From IMG/VR virus record IMGVR_UViG_2606217102_000012: a stretch of 4,083 nucleotides of DNA; one strand, 5' to 3'. Origin of the DNA: a virus (lineage: Duplodnaviria; Heunggongvirae; Uroviricota; Caudoviricetes). This document shows positions 1 to 4,083 of the stretch, piece by piece. Each line of letters begins with the position of its first letter. Position 1 is the stretch's first letter. The notes beneath the pieces are model-generated. The model was not told the DNA's origin and searched no databases. It worked only from the letters and a program-made list of their open reading frames with translations. The position numbers were made by a program, and so were the translations under genes.

Positions 1-99
1 GGACAATTCCCATCACGGCGTAAACTCGGCGGTCGTTCCGTTGGCTGGTCTTTATCCGAAGTTCTGGCATGGAAGGACAGCCGCGAGGCAGTTCACTAA
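1..99 (+). CDS. alpA: AlpA/Vis-family phage regulatory protein (excisionase-like HTH), C-terminal fragment; 5' end lies outside the window
   Basis: Frame 1 reads GQFPSRRKLGGRSVGWSLSEVLAWKDSREAVH then stop (TAA 97-99). The FPxxRxLGxxSVGWxxxExxxW pattern matches the conserved C-terminus of AlpA-family proteins as recalled from memory (E. coli CP4-57 AlpA ...FPKKRMLGVKSVGWIEAEIDEWL...). Not verified by search. Confidence 0.7.
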   Translation, partial: GQFPSRRKLGGRSVGWSLSEVLAWKDSREAVH

Positions 100-240
100 T
101 CAGGCTGGCGGCGCACCGCCGCCACCCATCCACTAACACAGAGATCTAACCATGAATACTGGATATACGCCCGAACAGGGGCGGGGCTTCGTTCGTCCTG
201 GTGAAACTAAAAAGCCATGTTATCGGGTATTTTCAGGCAT

Positions 241-271
241 AAAAAAAGCGGCCCCGATAAGGAACCGCCTT
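241..271 (-). terminator. second, weaker hairpin plus T-run (possible back-up or bidirectional terminator between alpA and the minus-strand cassette)
   Basis: Imperfect stem GCGG(c)CC (248-254) / GG(a)CCGC (262-268) with a 7-nt loop. On the minus strand it is followed by a run of 7 T (plus-strand A-run 241-247); on the plus strand only by CTTTCT. Stem is short and interrupted. Confidence 0.3.
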
Positions 272-360
272 TCTGAACAATTAACCTGCTGCGAAAAAAA
301 TGGATCAGTGCAGGGGAATTATATCAACCGTGTGGTGAAGCGCCACTATTGCCGGATAAC

Positions 361-393
361 AAGCAAAACAAAGGCGACCGCAAAAGGGTCGCC
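361..393 (-). terminator. Rho-independent terminator candidate for the minus-strand RHH cassette
   Basis: Perfect 7-bp GC-rich inverted repeat GGCGACC (373-379) / GGTCGCC (387-393) with a 7-nt loop. On the minus strand the hairpin is followed immediately by TTTGTTTTGCTT (revcomp of 361-372). It lies 67 nt past the stop of the 460..633 gene. Confidence 0.55.
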
Positions 394-459
394 AGTGGGA
401 ACAAGGGAAAACAAAAGCATCACCAACAATGCCACATTTGCGGCTGGTGGGCAATGCAA

Positions 460-633
460 TCAGTCTGGTTCAGTTCGTTGCCATACCTGCAATGAGCGCT
501 TTTCCCTGTACTCTTTAAGGAATTGCTCAAGGGCAAAAGCACATGGCGCGAATCTTTCTGATTCATGCTCTATCTTTCTGCGCCGTCTTTTCCGTGTCGG
601 TGATAATGTTTTGGTCAATTCTTTATCGGTCAT
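460..633 (-). CDS. small highly basic hypothetical protein (57 aa; 62 aa if the upstream ATG at 648 is used), second gene of the RHH cassette
   Basis: Minus-strand ORF in tandem with the RHH gene (42-57 nt gap). The ATG at 633..631 has a weak AGGG SD-like sequence 7 nt upstream; stop TGA at 462..460. Product MTDKELTKTLSPTRKRRRRKIEHESERFAPCAFALEQFLKEYREKRSLQVWQRTEPD, with an R/K-rich stretch (TRKRRRRK). Followed 67 nt downstream by a hairpin plus T-tract. No family recognised. Confidence 0.45.
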   Translation of the reverse strand: MTDKELTKTLSPTRKRRRRKIEHESERFAPCAFALEQFLKEYREKRSLQVWQRTEPD

Positions 634-690
634 TGTGTTGCCCTGCATAGCAATGCGCCGTAGTTACTCACACCACGGCGCTGGTGATGG

Positions 691-870
691 TTACTCCTGC
701 TCTTTGGCCTTGCGACGCTGGCGGCGTTTGATCTCGCCTTTTGCGGCAGTAACTAAAAAACCAGCGGTACTTTCGCCAGGTTCTTTAAGTTGCTCAATAT
801 CATCCATTACTTCATGTGGGATTCTGACAGTTGTCATTTGTGATTTTGCGTTCTTTGCACCAGTTGCCAT
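691..870 (-). CDS. Arc/MetJ-type ribbon-helix-helix DNA-binding protein (59 aa), candidate element repressor or antitoxin-like regulator
   Basis: Minus-strand ATG at 870..868 preceded by AGGAGA (revcomp of 876-881) at good spacing; stop TAA at 693..691. Product MATGAKNAKSQMTTVRIPHEVMDDIEQLKEPGESTAGFLVTAAKGEIKRRQRRKAKEQE. The segment VRIPHEVMDDIEQL...GESTAGFLVTAAKGEI follows the Arc-repressor RHH pattern (beta-strand R-x-P-x-E-hydrophobic, then two helices). The six-frame track extends this ORF to 1038, but that N-terminal extension has no RBS and overlaps the promoter region. Confidence 0.65.
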   Translation of the reverse strand: MATGAKNAKSQMTTVRIPHEVMDDIEQLKEPGESTAGFLVTAAKGEIKRRQRRKAKEQE

Positions 871-891
871 TTCTGGATCTCCTAAAAATTG

Positions 892-984
892 GTGTATGTC
901 AGTATACGCAAAAAAAATGATAAAAAAAGGCTTGAAGTGTATTTCACCAGTGAGTAAATTAAAAAGCAAAGGTGAAATACACCT
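892..984. promoter_or_regulatory. divergent promoter/operator region between the minus-strand RHH gene and the plus-strand small-gene/rep operon
   Basis: Perfect 12-bp inverted repeat GTGTATTTCACC (937-948) / GGTGAAATACAC (971-982) separated by a 22-bp AT-rich spacer, plus another GTGTAT at 892-897. A-tracts at 909-929. Candidate sigma70-like elements: plus-strand TTGAAG (932-937), 17 bp, TAAATT (955-960); minus-strand -10-like TATACT (revcomp of 901-906). Promoter hexamers are weak matches and unverified. Confidence 0.4.
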
Positions 985-1063
985 AAAAGAGCAACGCCCC
1001 GCAGTGCTCGCAACACATGCAGGGCGTCTAACCACCAACGATAACGAGAGTATCGAGGTAGCT

Positions 1064-1270
1064 ATGAGAAATTATACCAGACACCCGCAAGGGCGGGACT
1101 CGTACAACCTGAATAAATACATCTGGCGTTTTATCGCCCTGAGCACGGCACAACCGCGCGTGATTACCATTGAGGCCACCAGCGAACAGGAAGCGCGTCA
1201 GCAATCTCCTGATGGCTGCGTGATGGTATTCGCTGCCCGTATTCGCCAGGGGGAAACCTATGCACAATAA
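1064..1270 (+). CDS. small hypothetical protein (68 aa), tentatively Icd-like (host cell division inhibitor family); first gene of the plus-strand operon
   Basis: ATG 1064 preceded by GAGG (1055-1058) with 5-nt spacing; stop TAA 1268-1270. Product MRNYTRHPQGRDSYNLNKYIWRFIALSTAQPRVITIEATSEQEARQQSPDGCVMVFAARIRQGETYAQ. The ...EAxSEQEAR...FAAR... C-terminal pattern resembles what I recall of Icd-like small proteins in P4-like/satellite islands; family assignment is from memory only. These are the last 68 codons of the otherwise spurious 152..1270 ORF. Confidence 0.5.
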   Translation: MRNYTRHPQGRDSYNLNKYIWRFIALSTAQPRVITIEATSEQEARQQSPDGCVMVFAARIRQGETYAQ

Positions 1271-1496
1271 AACCACACCGGACGCAGCCGCCGAAGCCAT
1301 CAAAACGCTGATGCACGCGCTGATTGATATTTCTGTTATCGCAGACAAGGCGCATAAGCACGCCACCAGCGAAACAGAATATGCCGGGGCTTTCGTTCCT
1401 CACTCACTGGCTCTTATGCAATTTAGTGCTGATATGGCGCTGAATGAGGCAGGCAAAATTCTTACCGCAGATATTCAGGGGGTGCACCATGCATGA
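1260..1496 (+). CDS. hypothetical protein (78 aa)
   Basis: ATG 1260 preceded by GGGGG (1250-1254); overlaps the upstream gene by 11 nt, suggesting translational coupling. Stop TGA 1494-1496. Product MHNKTTPDAAAEAIKTLMHALIDISVIADKAHKHATSETEYAGAFVPHSLALMQFSADMALNEAGKILTADIQGVHHA. No family recognised. Confidence 0.5.
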   Translation: MHNKTTPDAAAEAIKTLMHALIDISVIADKAHKHATSETEYAGAFVPHSLALMQFSADMALNEAGKILTADIQGVHHA

Positions 1497-1716
1497 TGAC
1501 CGTTATCTTAAATCAATGAGCCATGCAGAAAACGCACTGACTAACAGTGAATGTTTGAGGCAAATATTTCTTATCTGGCTTGATGGTTTAAGTGATGCGC
1601 CGGAAGATGAGCGTGAGTCTAATCTTGCTGGTGCGTTTATTTCATTACTCGATACGGTAATCGTCGAATTAAATAAAGCGATCGAAATTCACGATAAAAA
1701 AATAAACGCGGAATAA
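1489..1716 (+). CDS. hypothetical acidic protein (75 aa)
   Basis: ATG 1489 preceded by AGGGGG (1477-1482) with 6-nt spacing; overlaps the upstream stop in ATGCATGA (1489-1496). Stop TAA 1714-1716. The track's upstream ATG at 1444 has no SD. Product MHDDRYLKSMSHAENALTNSECLRQIFLIWLDGLSDAPEDERESNLAGAFISLLDTVIVELNKAIEIHDKKINAE. Confidence 0.5.
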   Translation: MHDDRYLKSMSHAENALTNSECLRQIFLIWLDGLSDAPEDERESNLAGAFISLLDTVIVELNKAIEIHDKKINAE

Positions 1717-1721
1717 AAACC

Positions 1722-2009
1722 ATGAAAAATAAAAATTCTGGCTTTACTGCCAGCGGCCCCGCTCGGCCTGAAATCCGCCCCGGCGATATTTTCCGGGATA
1801 ACTATGGCGGCACGGTAACGATAAAAGGCGTGGCAGAACGGCGCATCACTTACCGCCGTGATGGCTACGAATATGACTGCGTGATGCCTGTTTATCAGTT
1901 CCGGCGTGATTTCACGCTGGTGGGCCATCGTAAAGCCGTAAATCAGAAACGTGCAGCAAGTCATATCCGCAAAATTCGTGAAATGCTGGTCGCAGGGGGT
2001 AAAAAATGA
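1722..2009 (+). CDS. hypothetical basic protein (95 aa), translationally coupled to the downstream helicase gene
   Basis: ATG 1722 begins 6 nt after the upstream stop; its stop TGA (2007-2009) overlaps the ATG of the rep gene (2006-2008) in ATGA. Product MKNKNSGFTASGPARPEIRPGDIFRDNYGGTVTIKGVAERRITYRRDGYEYDCVMPVYQFRRDFTLVGHRKAVNQKRAASHIRKIREMLVAGGKK. No family recognised. Confidence 0.55.
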   Translation: MKNKNSGFTASGPARPEIRPGDIFRDNYGGTVTIKGVAERRITYRRDGYEYDCVMPVYQFRRDFTLVGHRKAVNQKRAASHIRKIREMLVAGGKK

Positions 2010-3412
2010 AACTGGCACCGAACGTAAAACTGTTACCGAAAGATAAACACACTGAGGCGGTTATTTTTGCGGGTGATAATGCTCACTCCTTTGCAGAACA
2101 TTACATGATTGCACAGGCCAAAAAAGCAGGCGATCCCATCCCTCCGGTTTACCTGGGCCGTTATCAGTTAAGCGAACTGGACAACCTGCAGATTGTTGAT
2201 GAGGGGCGATACAGGGTAACGGTGATACGCGCCGGAAATATTGACGAAGCGCAGCTGTTAACCATAGCGACAAAACTGGCGATCGCCGGAGTCCAGGAAG
2301 CGCGGCTGCTTTCTGAAAACTTCGAATTACTGGAGAAATGGACCGACCAGCTTCCACGGCTACGGGAGACATGGGAGAGAGGGGAAAGCCTGATCATGAA
2401 CGGAGGAAAACAAAAAATCACGCTACCGATTTCATGGGGTTCTGAGGGATTCGACGCGCAGCAAAGCTACGTAATTAAGGGGCTTATTCCGGCTGAATCA
2501 TTATGCAGCACCTACGGGGCCAGCGGTTCTTATAAATCGTTCCTGGCTATTTCCTGGTCGTGCCATGTTGCCACAGGTATGGCATGGGGAGGCCGCAGGG
2601 TAAGTAAGGGCGCGGTTATCTATATCGCTGGCGAAGGCAGTATGGGCGTAAAACGCCGCGTTAAGGCGTGGGAGATAACCCACGACAAGGTGGTTACGGA
2701 TTTGTGCATCGTTAACGCGCCTGTCTTCCCTGCATCGCCTGACTATGTGGAGCAGGTTATCAGGACCGCCGGATTAGTGCAGGACAGAACGGGCGAAAGG
2801 GTGCGGATGATTGTCATTGACACGCTGGCCCGTTGCTTTGGTGGTCATGATGAAAATGACTCCCGCGACATGGGGGCGTTTATCCAGGGGTGTGACGCGA
2901 TAAAGCAGGCCACGGGGGCCACGGTTCTGGTTGTGCATCATTCCGGCAAGGATGAGACGAAAGGGGCGCGGGGTTCCAGTGCATTCCGTGCGGCGCTTGA
3001 TGCTGAGTTCCGAATCAGTCGGGAACATTCAGAGGCTACGGCGCTGGTTGCAGCATGTACGAAGATGAAGGACGCGGAGGAGCCAAAAGAAAGCGCCTAC
3101 GACCTTAAGAGCGTGGAGGTATTTACGGATCCTGAGGGTGAAGAAATCGTGTCCATGGTGGTGATTGACGTTCCCCGCGCCCCTGCTGAACTGGAGCGCA
3201 TAGAGGAGGCCGGGAACAAGACGGAAAATCACACGGCTTTATGGGGTTGTATCCGGTCACGTATACAGCATGGTGATAAATGCACGATCCCGCTGCTACG
3301 TGATGACATGAAAAAGCTGGGATATGACACAAAACACCTTAAACGATGGTTAGCCAAACTGGAAAAAGACGGCGTGATTTGCGTCGATGGGGATGATGTT
3401 CACCCACTGTAA
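2006..3412 (+). CDS. RepA-like RecA-fold (AAA_25-type) ATPase / replicative helicase-initiator of the element (468 aa)
   Basis: Long ORF with SD AGGGGG (1994-1999) 6 nt before the ATG. P-loop-like motif YGASGSYKSFLAI; Walker B / helicase motif RMIVIDTLARCF followed by HDENDSRDM; motif TVLVVHHSGKDETKGARGSSAFRAALDAEFRI typical of RepA/DnaB-like RecA-fold helicases. N-terminal ~150 aa and C-terminal ~90 aa regions (...DDMKKLGYDTKHLKRWLAKLEKDGVI..., possibly winged-helix) are unassigned. Iteron array begins at its stop codon. Confidence 0.85.
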   Translation: MKLAPNVKLLPKDKHTEAVIFAGDNAHSFAEHYMIAQAKKAGDPIPPVYLGRYQLSELDNLQIVDEGRYRVTVIRAGNIDEAQLLTIATKLAIAGVQEARLLSENFELLEKWTDQLPRLRETWERGESLIMNGGKQKITLPISWGSEGFDAQQSYVIKGLIPAESLCSTYGASGSYKSFLAISWSCHVATGMAWGGRRVSKGAVIYIAGEGSMGVKRRVKAWEITHDKVVTDLCIVNAPVFPASPDYVEQVIRTAGLVQDRTGERVRMIVIDTLARCFGGHDENDSRDMGAFIQGCDAIKQATGATVLVVHHSGKDETKGARGSSAFRAALDAEFRISREHSEATALVAACTKMKDAEEPKESAYDLKSVEVFTDPEGEEIVSMVVIDVPRAPAELERIEEAGNKTENHTALWGCIRSRIQHGDKCTIPLLRDDMKKLGYDTKHLKRWLAKLEKDGVICVDGDDVHPL

Positions 3413-3612
3413 AAAGTGGGCGTTAAAAGTGGGAATAGTGGGTAATTTAACTGGAATTTAACAAAATCGCCCACTTTCCCACGTGTATACATCCCAAAAA
3501 GTGGGCACTAAAAAAATTCTTATGAAACAGTACGATATAAAACCACAAAATCCCAGGTGGGACGAAGTGGGAAACCATGAAAAGTGGGTAGAAAAAGTGG
3601 GCGCAGGTGGGC
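3403..3612. repeat. iteron array, candidate origin of replication (ori) of the element
   Basis: Direct copies of (A)AGTGGG ending at 3420, 3433, 3442, 3505, 3571, 3588 and 3601, plus AGGTGGG variants ending at 3561 and 3611. Inverted copies CCCACT at 3403-3408 and 3470-3475, and CCCAC at 3478-3482. Two clusters (3403-3505 and 3555-3612) flank an AT-rich ~45-bp segment (3506-3550). AATTTAAC occurs twice (3444-3451, 3455-3462). Placement directly 3' of the helicase gene matches the rep-ori layout of SaPI/PICI-type elements. Confidence 0.7.
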
Positions 3613-3614
3613 GC

Positions 3615-3866
3615 ATGACCAGAAAAACCAGAGATAAGACAACACCAAAATATCGCGCATTAGACATGACAGAGCACGCCTTAAAGGTGGCAATCAGAAC
3701 GATAGACCGCCACGCCGGAGAAGGATACGCGAAAGCACATCCCGAACTGATAAGCGCATTCATGATCACGGCGGCGGCAAATTTTGCCACACTGACAGAA
3801 CGGGAGATTGCCGAAGCGGAACAGGTGACAACCATCAACGTTAAAACCGGAGAGCAGACAGCATGA
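3615..3866 (+). CDS. hypothetical protein (83 aa); start uncertain
   Basis: ATG 3615 preceded by AGGTGG (3605-3610, itself an iteron variant) with 4-nt spacing; stop TGA 3864-3866 overlaps the next ATG (3863) in ATGA. Product MTRKTRDKTTPKYRALDMTEHALKVAIRTIDRHAGEGYAKAHPELISAFMITAAANFATLTEREIAEAEQVTTINVKTGEQTA. The track's start at 3483 is a GTG and would make the iterons coding, which is judged unlikely. Confidence 0.45.
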   Translation: MTRKTRDKTTPKYRALDMTEHALKVAIRTIDRHAGEGYAKAHPELISAFMITAAANFATLTEREIAEAEQVTTINVKTGEQTA

Positions 3867-4083
3867 CAGCACAGATAGCGGCTTACGGGCGGCTGGTGGC
3901 TGACCCGCAGCTAAAGACCACCAGCAAAGGGACACAAATGGCGATGGCGAGTATGGCGGTTCCCCTGCCATGCAGCCAGGCAGATGACGGAACGGCGACG
4001 ATGTGGTTATCTGTCCTGGCGTTTGGCAGACAGGCCGACGCACTGGCAAAACACCACAAAGGCGAACTGGTGAGCGTGGCGGG
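3863..4083 (+). CDS. SSB-like OB-fold single-stranded DNA-binding protein, N-terminal part (3' end outside window)
   Basis: ATG 3863 with GGAGAG (3849-3854) upstream; open to the window end. Product MTAQIAAYGRLVADPQLKTTSKGTQMAMASMAVPLPCSQADDGTATMWLSVLAFGRQADALAKHHKGELVSVAG. It aligns by eye with the SSB N-terminus (E. coli SSB [29 protein letters not shown] ... [30 protein letters not shown]): G-x-L-x-x-DP-x-h-x-x-T-x-x-G, a W-containing strand, F-G-x-x-A-x-x-h-x-x-h-x-KG-x-x-V-x-h-x-G. Confidence 0.6.
   Translation, partial: MTAQIAAYGRLVADPQLKTTSKGTQMAMASMAVPLPCSQADDGTATMWLSVLAFGRQADALAKHHKGELVSVA

What the first reader, a model, noticed from the sequence alone, without database searches (positions are those of the whole stretch)
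1064..2009. Four small overlapping genes translationally coupled to the helicase gene; functions unknown
The four ORFs are chained by overlaps (11 nt, ATGCATGA, a 6-nt gap, then ATGA into rep), and three have G-rich SD sequences, pointing to a tightly co-expressed operon. The first may be Icd-like (host cell division inhibitor); the other three match no family I can recognise. Small genes at this position in satellite-type islands are often helper-phage interference, derepression or replication accessory factors, so these are candidates for undescribed functions.
Basis: partly seen in the sequence, partly recalled or inferred. Interest (0 to 1): 0.5.

Follow-up and report, generated by a model that had tools for sequence, protein, structure and literature searches.

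The report
PICI early operon of small genes
The four small overlapping genes are real and open the early operon of an E. coli-type phage-inducible chromosomal island: the first is an Icd-like protein, the last belongs to the already described RgdR (DUF4222) regulator family, and the two between them are interchangeable cassettes whose function is still unknown.

Summary
Four ORFs (1064-1270, 1260-1496, 1489-1716, 1722-2009) are chained to the rep gene (2006-3412) by an 11-nt overlap, an 8-nt overlap, a 5-nt gap (not 6) and a 4-nt overlap. All four are intact, with dN/dS of about 0.2-0.5, in related elements. The window is the regulatory and replication part of an EcCICFT073-type phage-inducible chromosomal island (PICI).

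- **ORF1** is Icd-like: NCBIfam NF033153 at 1e-19, and 37% identity to P1 Icd.
- **ORF4** is not an orphan. It is a DUF4222 protein, 58-61% identical to RgdR/c1493. These are tested activators of LEE/type III secretion, and RgdR was already reported in all analysed E. coli PICIs.
- **ORF2 and ORF3** match only PHROGs of unknown function.

In 76 related arrays the Icd-like gene is always first and DUF4222 always last before rep. Between them lie 0-5 unrelated small cassettes in 19 architectures. ORF3-like genes occur in 60 arrays and ORF2-like genes in 40, and most junctions keep a Shine-Dalgarno sequence plus a start/stop overlap.

DUF4222 genes also overlap replication-initiator genes in an unrelated group of lambdoid phages. 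This suggests a replication-linked role, which remains unproven.

The finding is a new member of a known kind and is of modest interest.

The parts
1..99 (+). 3' end of the alpA gene (AlpA-family regulator, the activator of the cycle in Gram-negative PICIs)
   Evidence: Pfam Phage_AlpA 1e-7 over the last 24 profile positions. The role of AlpA comes from PMC6092414.
460..648 (-). Small leftward ORF (62 aa), unknown function
   Evidence: phrog_21027 1.5e-15. A 174-nt hypothetical CDS is annotated at the same place in L001 and L002.
691..870 (-). YlcI/YnfO family gene, divergent from the small-gene operon
   Evidence: NCBIfam NF041551 9.6e-18. It holds the same position in all E. coli loci fetched.
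871..1063 (+). Divergent intergenic region and 5' leader of the operon, with hairpins at 932-987 and 994-1027; GAGG at 1055-1058
   Evidence: Inverted repeats. RNA fold of 900-1075 gives z = -5.1. No Rfam family, including C4. No sigma-70-like promoter found in 600-2100.
1064..1270 (+). ORF1: Icd-like protein, 68 aa, always the first gene of the array
   Evidence: NCBIfam NF033153 1e-19, 70.3 bits against a cut-off of 25. 37% identity over 43 aa to P1 Icd, E 1e-7. AF2 core is beta-beta-alpha-beta over 19-59, pLDDT 83-88. dN/dS 0.28-0.63.
1260..1496 (+). ORF2: variable cassette 'C', 78 aa, mildly acidic, function unknown
   Evidence: phrog_5146 3e-35 and phrog_2512 4e-30. No hit in Pfam, NCBIfam, PADLOC or PDB. 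Present in 40 of 76 arrays. dN/dS 0.18-0.89.
1489..1716 (+). ORF3: cassette 'G', 75 aa, acidic (net charge about -8), usually the gene just before DUF4222; function unknown
   Evidence: phrog_2196 2e-21. Only about six true small relatives among 1.84 billion representatives. Present in 60 of 76 arrays and, where present, always adjacent to DUF4222. Charge.
1722..2009 (+). ORF4: RgdR-family DUF4222 protein, 95 aa, pI 10.5, overlapping rep through ATGA
2006..3412 (+). rep: RepA-type (AAA_25) helicase with an N-terminal ~125-aa domain shared with PICI primases
   Evidence: Pfam AAA_25 6.8e-43. The N-terminus is about 46% identical to the CFT073 and Sakai primases and has no Pfam family.
3412..3615 (.). 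Iteron-type origin downstream of rep
   Evidence: AAGTGGG occurs 7 times at 3414-3601 against 0.5 expected. Repeat families. PICI ori organisation described in PMC6092414.
3615..3866 (+). Conserved 83-aa ORF between the ori and ssb
   Evidence: phrog_1231 7e-50. 74-86% identical to the CFT073 and Sakai counterparts.
3863..4083 (+). 5' part of an ssb gene (runs off the window)
   Evidence: Pfam SSB 3e-8 and phrog_44 4e-21.

Best explanation
The four ORFs are the promoter-proximal genes of the rightward early operon of an EcCICFT073-type phage-inducible chromosomal island. They are read as one translationally coupled string that runs into the replication helicase gene.

Shown here:
- All four are conserved coding genes.
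- The Icd-like gene is always first and the RgdR/DUF4222 gene always last, overlapping rep by ATGA.
- Between them lies a variable set of 0-5 unrelated small-protein cassettes. ORF2 (type C) and ORF3 (type G) are two of these.
- Most internal junctions carry AGGrGG, then 5-8 nt, then an ATG that overlaps the upstream stop by 8 or 11 nt.

Inferred from the literature:
- Transcription is switched on when a helper phage induces alpA, and AlpA activates the island genes.

Inferred mechanism:
- Coupling makes expression of every downstream gene, rep included, depend on translation started at ORF1. The P1 genome record notes a comparable dependence, describing icd as apparently required for expression of ant.
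- ORF1, by homology with P1 Icd and by analogy with the ECOR61 locus, arrests host division or growth during the island's cycle.
- ORF4 is a small basic protein with a Tudor/SH3-like barrel and a C-terminal helix. It binds DNA without sequence specificity and perturbs transcription. Because its gene is physically tied to initiator genes in two unrelated element types, it probably acts at or around replication initiation as a non-essential accessory factor.
- ORF2 and ORF3 are accessory binders or inhibitors of helper or host proteins. This last step is the weakest.
For: Element identity:
- L001 (98.9% identical over window 990-4083) has tRNA-Pro, int, alpA, the same four CDS, RepA helicase, ssb, capsid, decoration protein and terS.
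- EcCICFT073 and Sakai Sp7 have the same layout.
- An iteron-type ori follows rep.

Coding status:
- dN/dS is about 0.2-0.5 for all four ORFs and the frames are intact.
- Each ORF has a family match.

Array rule:
- 12 RefSeq/GenBank loci and 76 IMG/VR arrays in 19 architectures show the same rule.
- The Icd-like gene is first and DUF4222 last in every array.
- The gene before DUF4222 is type G in 60 arrays and type F in 14.
- DUF4222 and rep overlap by 4 nt in 63 arrays.
- Junction motif.
- Mosaic breakpoints fall at gene junctions, near 1253-1267, 1494-1497, 1711-1716 and 2082.
- The cassette families are unrelated to each other except D and F.

ORF1:
- NF033153 at 1e-19 and 37% identity to P1 Icd.
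- P1 icd is ATGA-coupled to ant1 and is annotated as apparently required for ant expression.
- In the ECOR61 locus (Icd-like gene plus five linked genes, including a primase), growth inhibition was abolished when the Icd-like gene was removed (bioRxiv 10.1101/2023.04.06.535777).

ORF4:
- DUF4222 at 1e-25 and 58-61% identity to RgdR and c1493.
- RgdR activates LEE1, represses motility and binds DNA non-specifically (PMC3378721).
- Fold.
- A second DUF4222 lineage overlaps an O-like/DnaD-like initiator gene in 77 of 77 lambdoid loci.

Regulation:
- AlpA activates EcCICFT073 genes and is induced by helper phages (PMC6092414).
- No internal promoter or plus-strand terminator was found.
Against: - No function was tested here.
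- ORF4 has PGD where RgdR has RGD. Residue 20 affects activity in a context-dependent way.
- A cloned rep-ori segment of EcCICFT073, with rep under an arabinose-inducible promoter, was maintained at the restrictive temperature as described. The Klebsiella island L015 has no DUF4222 gene before its primase. Any replication role for DUF4222 is therefore dispensable.
- The linkage between DUF4222 and initiator genes comes from two lineages of closely related elements. The three PICI Rep types share their N-terminal domain, so there are really only two independent associations.
- For ORF2 and ORF3 there is no evidence on function at all. Pseudogenised cassettes occur (L012, L014).
- The junction motif may reflect nothing more than the constraints of a Shine-Dalgarno sequence plus a start/stop overlap.
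Confidence: 0.7

Rival explanations
1. ORF4's real job is to regulate host transcription, as a virulence or motility regulator of the RgdR type, possibly by contacting RNA polymerase through its Tudor-like barrel in the way CarD or the UvrD/PcrA C-terminal domains do. On this view its position before rep is a historical accident of operon layout.
For: - RgdR and c1493 activate LEE1/T3S and repress motility when expressed in trans. Deleting OI-51 reduces colonisation of sheep (PMC3378721).
- A rep-ori plasmid is maintained without the rgdR gene.
Against: - The family is common in strains without LEE, and 1927 of 5426 complete E. coli genomes match the block.
- A distant DUF4222 lineage sits in lambdoid phages, again overlapping the initiator gene, in 77 of 77 loci.
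- ORF4 lacks the RGD arginine.
Confidence: 0.3
2. The Icd-like gene, the small genes and rep together form a phage-triggered growth-arrest module (abortive infection or superinfection exclusion). The Icd-like protein would be the effector and the other small proteins would be sensors or modulators.
For: [quoted passage not shown] Transposon suppressors mapped to three of the genes, and removing the Icd-like gene abolished the effect. The high turnover of the cassettes (19 architectures in 76 arrays) fits genes engaged in conflict.
Against: - The ECOR61 sequence could not be compared with the window, so homology of the whole locus is unproven.
- No PADLOC model matches any of the proteins.
- The reconstituted effect in that study was described as muted.
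- PICI interference described so far maps to other genes, namely Rpp acting on TerS (PMC6739421).
Confidence: 0.2
3. ORF2 and ORF3 matter only as translated spacers that carry ribosomes from ORF1 to ORF4 and rep. Their protein products would have no function of their own.
For: - They are dispensable. Arrays exist without type C (36 of 76) or type G (16 of 76), and the minimal arrays are A-G-H, A-F-H and A-H.
- Pseudogenised cassettes exist.
- The families are very narrow.
Against: - dN/dS is well below 1 in most comparisons: 0.18-0.37 for ORF2 at 61-79% identity and 0.18-0.24 for ORF3.
- Conserved residue patterns persist across family members that are only 20-53% identical.
- Type G keeps a fixed position next to DUF4222 in 60 arrays.
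- Natural C-E fusion proteins keep both reading frames.
Confidence: 0.1

Closest known systems
RgdR (ECs1581, O-island 51 / Sp7 of E. coli O157:H7) and c1493 of EcCICFT073
   Same: Same Pfam family (DUF4222) and 58-61% identity over the full length. Same position, immediately upstream of the island's replication gene and overlapping it by ATGA. K35 and the whole 23-67 core are conserved.
   Different: ORF4 is 95 aa rather than 99 and has PGD instead of the RGD motif at 20-22. Its C-terminal region also differs, although some related copies (L009, L010, L014) share the same C-terminal end as the window. The downstream gene is a RepA-type helicase rather than a D5- or DUF927-type primase. No LEE or motility phenotype was tested.
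Phage P1 icd-ant operon
   Same: A small Icd-family protein (37% identity over 43 aa) is the first cistron and overlaps the next gene (ATGA in P1, 11 nt here). P1 icd is annotated as apparently required for ant expression.
   Different: In P1, icd is preceded by the C4 antisense RNA and followed by an antirepressor. Here no C4 or other Rfam RNA is found, and the downstream genes are small cassettes, DUF4222 and a helicase.
EcCICFT073-type Gram-negative PICIs (Fillol-Salom et al. 2018, PMC6092414)
   Same: int-alpA, then the rightward operon, then rep, an iteron ori, ssb and capsid/decoration/packaging genes, with RgdR encoded by the island.
   Different: This island carries four small genes before rep where CFT073 has six and Sakai five. 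Its Rep has a RepA-type helicase core. Only part of the island lies in the window.
ECOR61 Icd-like growth-arrest locus (Silas et al. preprint, 10.1101/2023.04.06.535777)
   Same: An Icd-like gene linked to several small genes and a replication (primase) gene in an integrated element. [quoted passage not shown]
   Different: That Icd-like protein is described as having a long N-terminal extension.
Bacterial Tudor/SH3-like domains (UvrD/PcrA C-terminal domain, CarD N-terminal domain, NusG/Spt5 KOW)
   Different: Sequence identity is only 8-16% and no sequence-profile link was found. The scores are typical of any small barrel, and contact with RNA polymerase is untested.

Membership tests
Icd-like proteins (NCBIfam NF033153; prototype P1 Icd) | Score above the curated HMM cut-off over the whole domain | tested here: met
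   70.3 bits against a cut-off of 25; residues 19-62 cover profile positions 1-48 of 48.
Icd-like proteins (NCBIfam NF033153; prototype P1 Icd) | Direct similarity to P1 Icd, including the WRF...ATxExEAR...P.G...F.AR core | tested here: met
   BLASTP gives 37% identity over 43 aa, E 1e-7. The motif columns are invariant in alignment A3.
Icd-like proteins (NCBIfam NF033153; prototype P1 Icd) | Reversible inhibition of host cell division when expressed | not testable with these tools
RgdR / DUF4222 (Pfam PF13973) | Score above the Pfam gathering threshold | tested here: met
   89.4 bits against 27; residues 16-67 cover profile positions 1-52 of 53.
RgdR / DUF4222 (Pfam PF13973) | Orthology-level similarity and synteny with ECs1581 and c1493 (gene directly before the PICI replication gene) | tested here: met
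   58-61% identity over the full length. ATGA overlap with rep here, in L002 and in L003.
RgdR / DUF4222 (Pfam PF13973) | RGD tripeptide at residues 20-22, after which the protein was named | tested here: not met
   ORF4 has P20-G21-D22. The published mutagenesis shows that residue 20 matters, but in a context-dependent way.
RgdR / DUF4222 (Pfam PF13973) | Activation of LEE1/T3S, repression of motility, DNA binding | not testable with these tools
   Phenotypes are known only for ECs1581 and c1493.
EcCICFT073-type Gram-negative PICI | alpA upstream, a unidirectional rightward operon, a replication gene followed by an iteron ori, about 10-15 kb, own integrase and att site, no full set of phage genes | tested here: met
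   In the window: the alpA 3' end, rep, and AAGTGGG iterons. In the 98.9%-identical L001: tRNA-Pro, int, alpA, then capsid, decoration protein and terS, about 9.5 kb.
EcCICFT073-type Gram-negative PICI | Induction, replication and packaging that depend on a helper phage | not testable with these tools
   Experimental property, shown for EcCICFT073 and not for this island.
Known anti-phage defence systems (PADLOC-DB) | Match of any of the small proteins to a defence-system model | tested here: not met
   No family at E up to 0.1 for ORF1-4, the other cassettes, YlcI/YnfO or the 62-aa ORF.

The most novel reading that the evidence does not exclude
DUF4222/RgdR may not primarily be a virulence regulator. 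It could be a small Tudor-like, DNA-binding accessory factor of replication initiation. Mobile elements would keep it translationally coupled to initiators of unrelated types (RepA helicase, D5- and DUF927-type primase-helicases, O-like/DnaD-like initiators). Its effects on LEE and motility would then be by-products. The stretch between the Icd-like gene and DUF4222 would be a recombination-prone cassette site, with junctions made of a Shine-Dalgarno sequence and a start/stop overlap, where PICIs exchange small inhibitors of helper or host proteins. ORF2 and ORF3 would be two such inhibitors.
Probability: 0.2. Interest if true: 0.55.

Novelty: new member of a known kind. Interest (0 to 1): 0.33.

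Why it matters
About a third of complete E. coli genomes (1927 of 5426) carry DNA similar to some part of this block. Even so, only one of its genes (rgdR) has published phenotypes. The work here has several practical uses:
- It corrects the idea that three of the four genes are orphans.
- It places ORF2 and ORF3 in a defined, variable cassette site of PICIs.
- It gives a testable link between DUF4222 proteins and replication initiators.
- It gives a structural model (barrel plus basic helix) for a regulator of type III secretion whose mechanism was still described only at the level of LEE1 activation in a 2024 review.

None of this changes how PICIs are understood. It mainly sharpens which experiments are worth doing.

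Tried and rejected
- **C4/CI-like antisense RNA.** I looked for one upstream of the Icd-like gene, as in P1. Rfam at E up to 1 found nothing relevant in the window.
- **Solved structures.** I searched PDB sequences with each single protein and with family profiles of ORF2 and ORF3. Nothing scored below E 0.1.
- **ORF3 relatives.** The exhaustive phmmer search found about six small true relatives. The large proteins that also hit are repeat artefacts.
- **Genome-wide locus scan.** The scan of genome contigs with a DUF4222 alignment returned only two loci because the derived patterns were too specific.
- **Shared ancestry of cassettes.** The idea that the cassettes are paralogues of one helical family is rejected. 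hhalign probabilities are below 2%, except for D and F at 88%.
- **ORF2/ORF3 fusion.** I suspected this from the 154-position phrog_2512. The fusions are in fact between type C and type E cassettes, not C and G.
- **Phage origin.** There is no nucleotide match in 50,697 phage records. tblastn with ORF1 or ORF3 finds only a 16.5-kb induced 'prophage' record that carries int, an Icd-like gene, small ORFs, a primase and head/packaging genes, so it looks like a capsid-encoding PICI-type island.
- **Literature.** Searches on EcCICFT073 found no study of the small genes other than rgdR.
- **Not done.** ORF2 and ORF3 were not modelled, because both structure-prediction jobs went to ORF1 and ORF4.
Full report
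**1. The observation**

The window holds four plus-strand ORFs chained to a larger gene:
- ORF1: 1064-1270 (68 aa)
- ORF2: 1260-1496 (78 aa)
- ORF3: 1489-1716 (75 aa)
- ORF4: 1722-2009 (95 aa)
- rep: 2006-3412 (468 aa)

G-rich Shine-Dalgarno sequences precede ORF2 (1248-1254), ORF3 (1477-1482) and rep (1994-1999). ORF1 has GAGG at 1055-1058. ORF4 has no convincing Shine-Dalgarno sequence.

The ORF3 frame is open from an ATG at 1444. Homologues and the PHROG profile start at the 1489 ATG.

There is no sigma-70-like promoter and no plus-strand terminator within the block. Antisense ORFs have no significant family match.

**2. Are they genes?**

Yes, on three grounds.
- RefSeq annotates the same four CDS with the same junctions in E. 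coli islands that are 98.9% (L001) and 99.4% (L007) identical here.
- Against 8-12 homologues per ORF, all frames are intact. Nei-Gojobori dN/dS is mostly 0.2-0.5.
- Each ORF matches a protein family.

**3. What element is this?**

The window begins with the 3' end of an alpA gene. Next come a leftward 62-aa ORF and a leftward YlcI/YnfO gene. After the rep gene come seven AAGTGGG iterons against 0.5 expected, a conserved 83-aa ORF, and the start of an ssb gene.

The near-identical island L001 lies at a tRNA-Pro gene. It carries int, alpA, this block, ssb, major capsid, head decoration and terS genes in about 9.5 kb. EcCICFT073 and the Sakai Sp7/OI-51 island have the same plan. This is the Gram-negative PICI organisation of Fillol-Salom et al. 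2018, in which a helper phage induces alpA and AlpA activates the island genes (PMC6092414).

There is no nucleotide match in 50,697 phage records. Of 5426 complete E. coli genomes, 1927 match some part of the block.

**4. ORF1**

- NCBIfam NF033153 (Icd-like) scores 70.3 bits against a cut-off of 25.
- P1 Icd aligns at 37% identity over 43 residues, and the core motif is shared.
- In P1, icd overlaps ant1 by ATGA and is annotated as apparently required for ant expression. A small Icd-type first cistron that leads a coupled operon therefore has a precedent.
- No C4-type RNA precedes it here.
- A preprint reports an integrated ECOR61 locus with an Icd-like gene, five linked genes and a primase. 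[quoted passage not shown]

**5. ORF4**

ORF4 matches Pfam DUF4222 at 1e-25. It is 58-61% identical to RgdR (ECs1581) and c1493.

What is known about these two proteins comes from PMC3378721:
- They activate LEE1 and type III secretion.
- They repress motility.
- RgdR binds DNA without specificity.

[quoted passage not shown] ORF4 is therefore not an orphan. It has PGD in place of RGD.

**6. ORF2 and ORF3**

- Both hit only PHROGs of unknown function.
- Neither hits anything in Pfam, NCBIfam, PADLOC or PDB sequences, even with family profiles.
- An exhaustive search of 1.84 billion representatives found about six true small relatives of ORF3.
- ORF3 is acidic (net charge about -8) and ORF2 mildly so.

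**7. The array rule**

I compared 12 annotated loci and 80 IMG/VR loci. Among 76 complete arrays:
- The Icd-like gene (A) is always first.
- DUF4222 (H) is always last.
- Zero to five small cassettes lie between them, in 19 architectures.

I labelled the cassette families s, B, C (ORF2-like), D, E, F and G (ORF3-like). They are unrelated to one another except D and F. Type G is present in 60 arrays and, where present, always directly before H. Type F takes that place in 14. Type C is present in 40. The window's order, A-C-G-H, occurs in 8.

The order is mostly collinear (s, B, C, D, E, then F or G), with some D-C exceptions.

Most internal junctions keep AGGrGG followed by an ATG that overlaps the upstream stop by 8 or 11 nt. 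Mosaic breakpoints between islands fall at gene junctions. Some cassettes are pseudogenes.

These counts are descriptive, because the loci are not independent samples.

**8. DUF4222 and replication genes**

In the PICIs, H overlaps rep by ATGA whatever the Rep type: D5-type primase in 55 arrays, RepA helicase in 20 and DUF927-type primase in 1. However, the three Rep types share a ~125-aa N-terminal domain, so they do not count as independent associations.

A distant DUF4222 lineage (34% identity to ORF4) sits in lambdoid Klebsiella-type phages after cro and cII. It overlaps an O-like/DnaD-like initiator gene in 77 of 77 loci.

Three things count against an essential replication role:
- A rep-ori plasmid of EcCICFT073 is maintained as described without it.
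- The Klebsiella island L015 has no DUF4222 gene.
- The two lineages are each dominated by close relatives.

**9. Interpretation**

*Shown.* This is a conserved, translationally chained early operon of a PICI. It has a fixed first gene (Icd-like), a fixed last gene (RgdR-type DUF4222) and a variable cassette site between them, which here holds ORF2 and ORF3.

*Inferred.*
- Transcription depends on AlpA.
- Translation started at ORF1 governs the whole string through to rep.
- ORF1 arrests division or growth.
- ORF4 is a non-specific DNA-binding accessory factor linked to replication initiation, or else a transcription modulator.
- ORF2 and ORF3 are accessory binders of helper or host proteins.

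The rival readings are set out in the rival-explanations section with the evidence for and against each.

**10. Novelty and score**

Two of the four genes belong to named families, and one of those families has published phenotypes and a published link to PICIs. The block itself is annotated in many genomes.

The cassette-site description, the link between DUF4222 and initiator genes, and the fold model are useful leads rather than discoveries.

Verdict: a new member of a known kind, with interest of about 0.33.

Noticed in passing
window 2006-2380 (rep N-terminus); L002:5242-5630; L003:4601-4980: The first ~125 aa of the RepA-type helicase are about 46% identical to the N-termini of the D5-type (CFT073) and DUF927-type (Sakai) PICI primases. 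This region has no Pfam family. Nucleotide similarity to many islands stops at window 2082, so rep genes look like chimeras of a shared N-terminal domain and exchangeable helicase cores.
   Followed up: partly
L024:2808-3260, L026:2830-3294, L032:2805-3269, L089:2805-3269: A poly-G run (G8-G11) lies at the junction between ORF2-like (C) and E cassettes. In several islands the two genes are fused in frame into proteins of 150-154 aa. These fusions appear to correspond to the 154-position phrog_2512, which ORF2 matched over its first half.
   Followed up: partly
window 900-1075: The leader upstream of ORF1 folds far better than shuffled sequence (-44.8 kcal/mol, z = -5.1) into three hairpins. 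The last hairpin (about 1034-1059) covers ORF1's GAGG. No Rfam family matches, and no sigma-70-like promoter was found. It could be a regulatory leader or an AlpA target.
   Followed up: partly
window 3412-3615: Seven AAGTGGG iterons (0.5 expected) lie in two groups around an AT-rich stretch directly after rep, which is the ori arrangement described for PICIs.
   Followed up: yes
proteins P0129, P0132, P0138, P0142: Proteins of about 190-205 aa are annotated as 'Ash family' or 'Icd-like'. They consist of the N-terminal half of an Icd-like domain, an inserted Pfam Phage_ASH segment of about 100 aa, and then a complete second Icd-like domain. This looks like an insertion into, or a duplication of, the Icd-like gene.
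   Followed up: partly
L009:2281-2646; arrays in L023, L028, L033, L091: Some islands carry tandem Icd-like domains, either within one 121-aa protein or as two successive genes.
   Followed up: no
window 152-1270 (+); L008:2300-2704; L013:2300-2701: The Icd-like reading frame is open for 372 codons upstream, antisense to the ylcI/ynfO gene. RefSeq calls N-terminally extended 'Icd-like' proteins of 133-134 aa in some islands. These are probably start-codon overcalls, since the 1064 start has the Shine-Dalgarno sequence and matches the shorter annotations. The 121-aa L009 protein is a different case (see the tandem-domain item).
   Followed up: partly
window 460-648 (-) and 691-870 (-): Two leftward small genes diverge from the operon: a 62-aa ORF (phrog_21027) and a YlcI/YnfO family gene. 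The YlcI/YnfO gene holds this position in every E. coli island examined and is a candidate regulator of the divergent promoter region. Neither was studied further.
   Followed up: no
L015 (LR881103.1, 'Escherichia phage vB_KppS-Ant', 16.5 kb): The only 'phage' record with relatives of ORF1 and ORF3 carries int, an Icd-like gene, small ORFs, a primase and head/packaging genes. It therefore looks like a capsid-encoding PICI-type satellite deposited as a phage. It has an ORF3-like gene overlapping the primase gene directly and no DUF4222 gene.
   Followed up: partly
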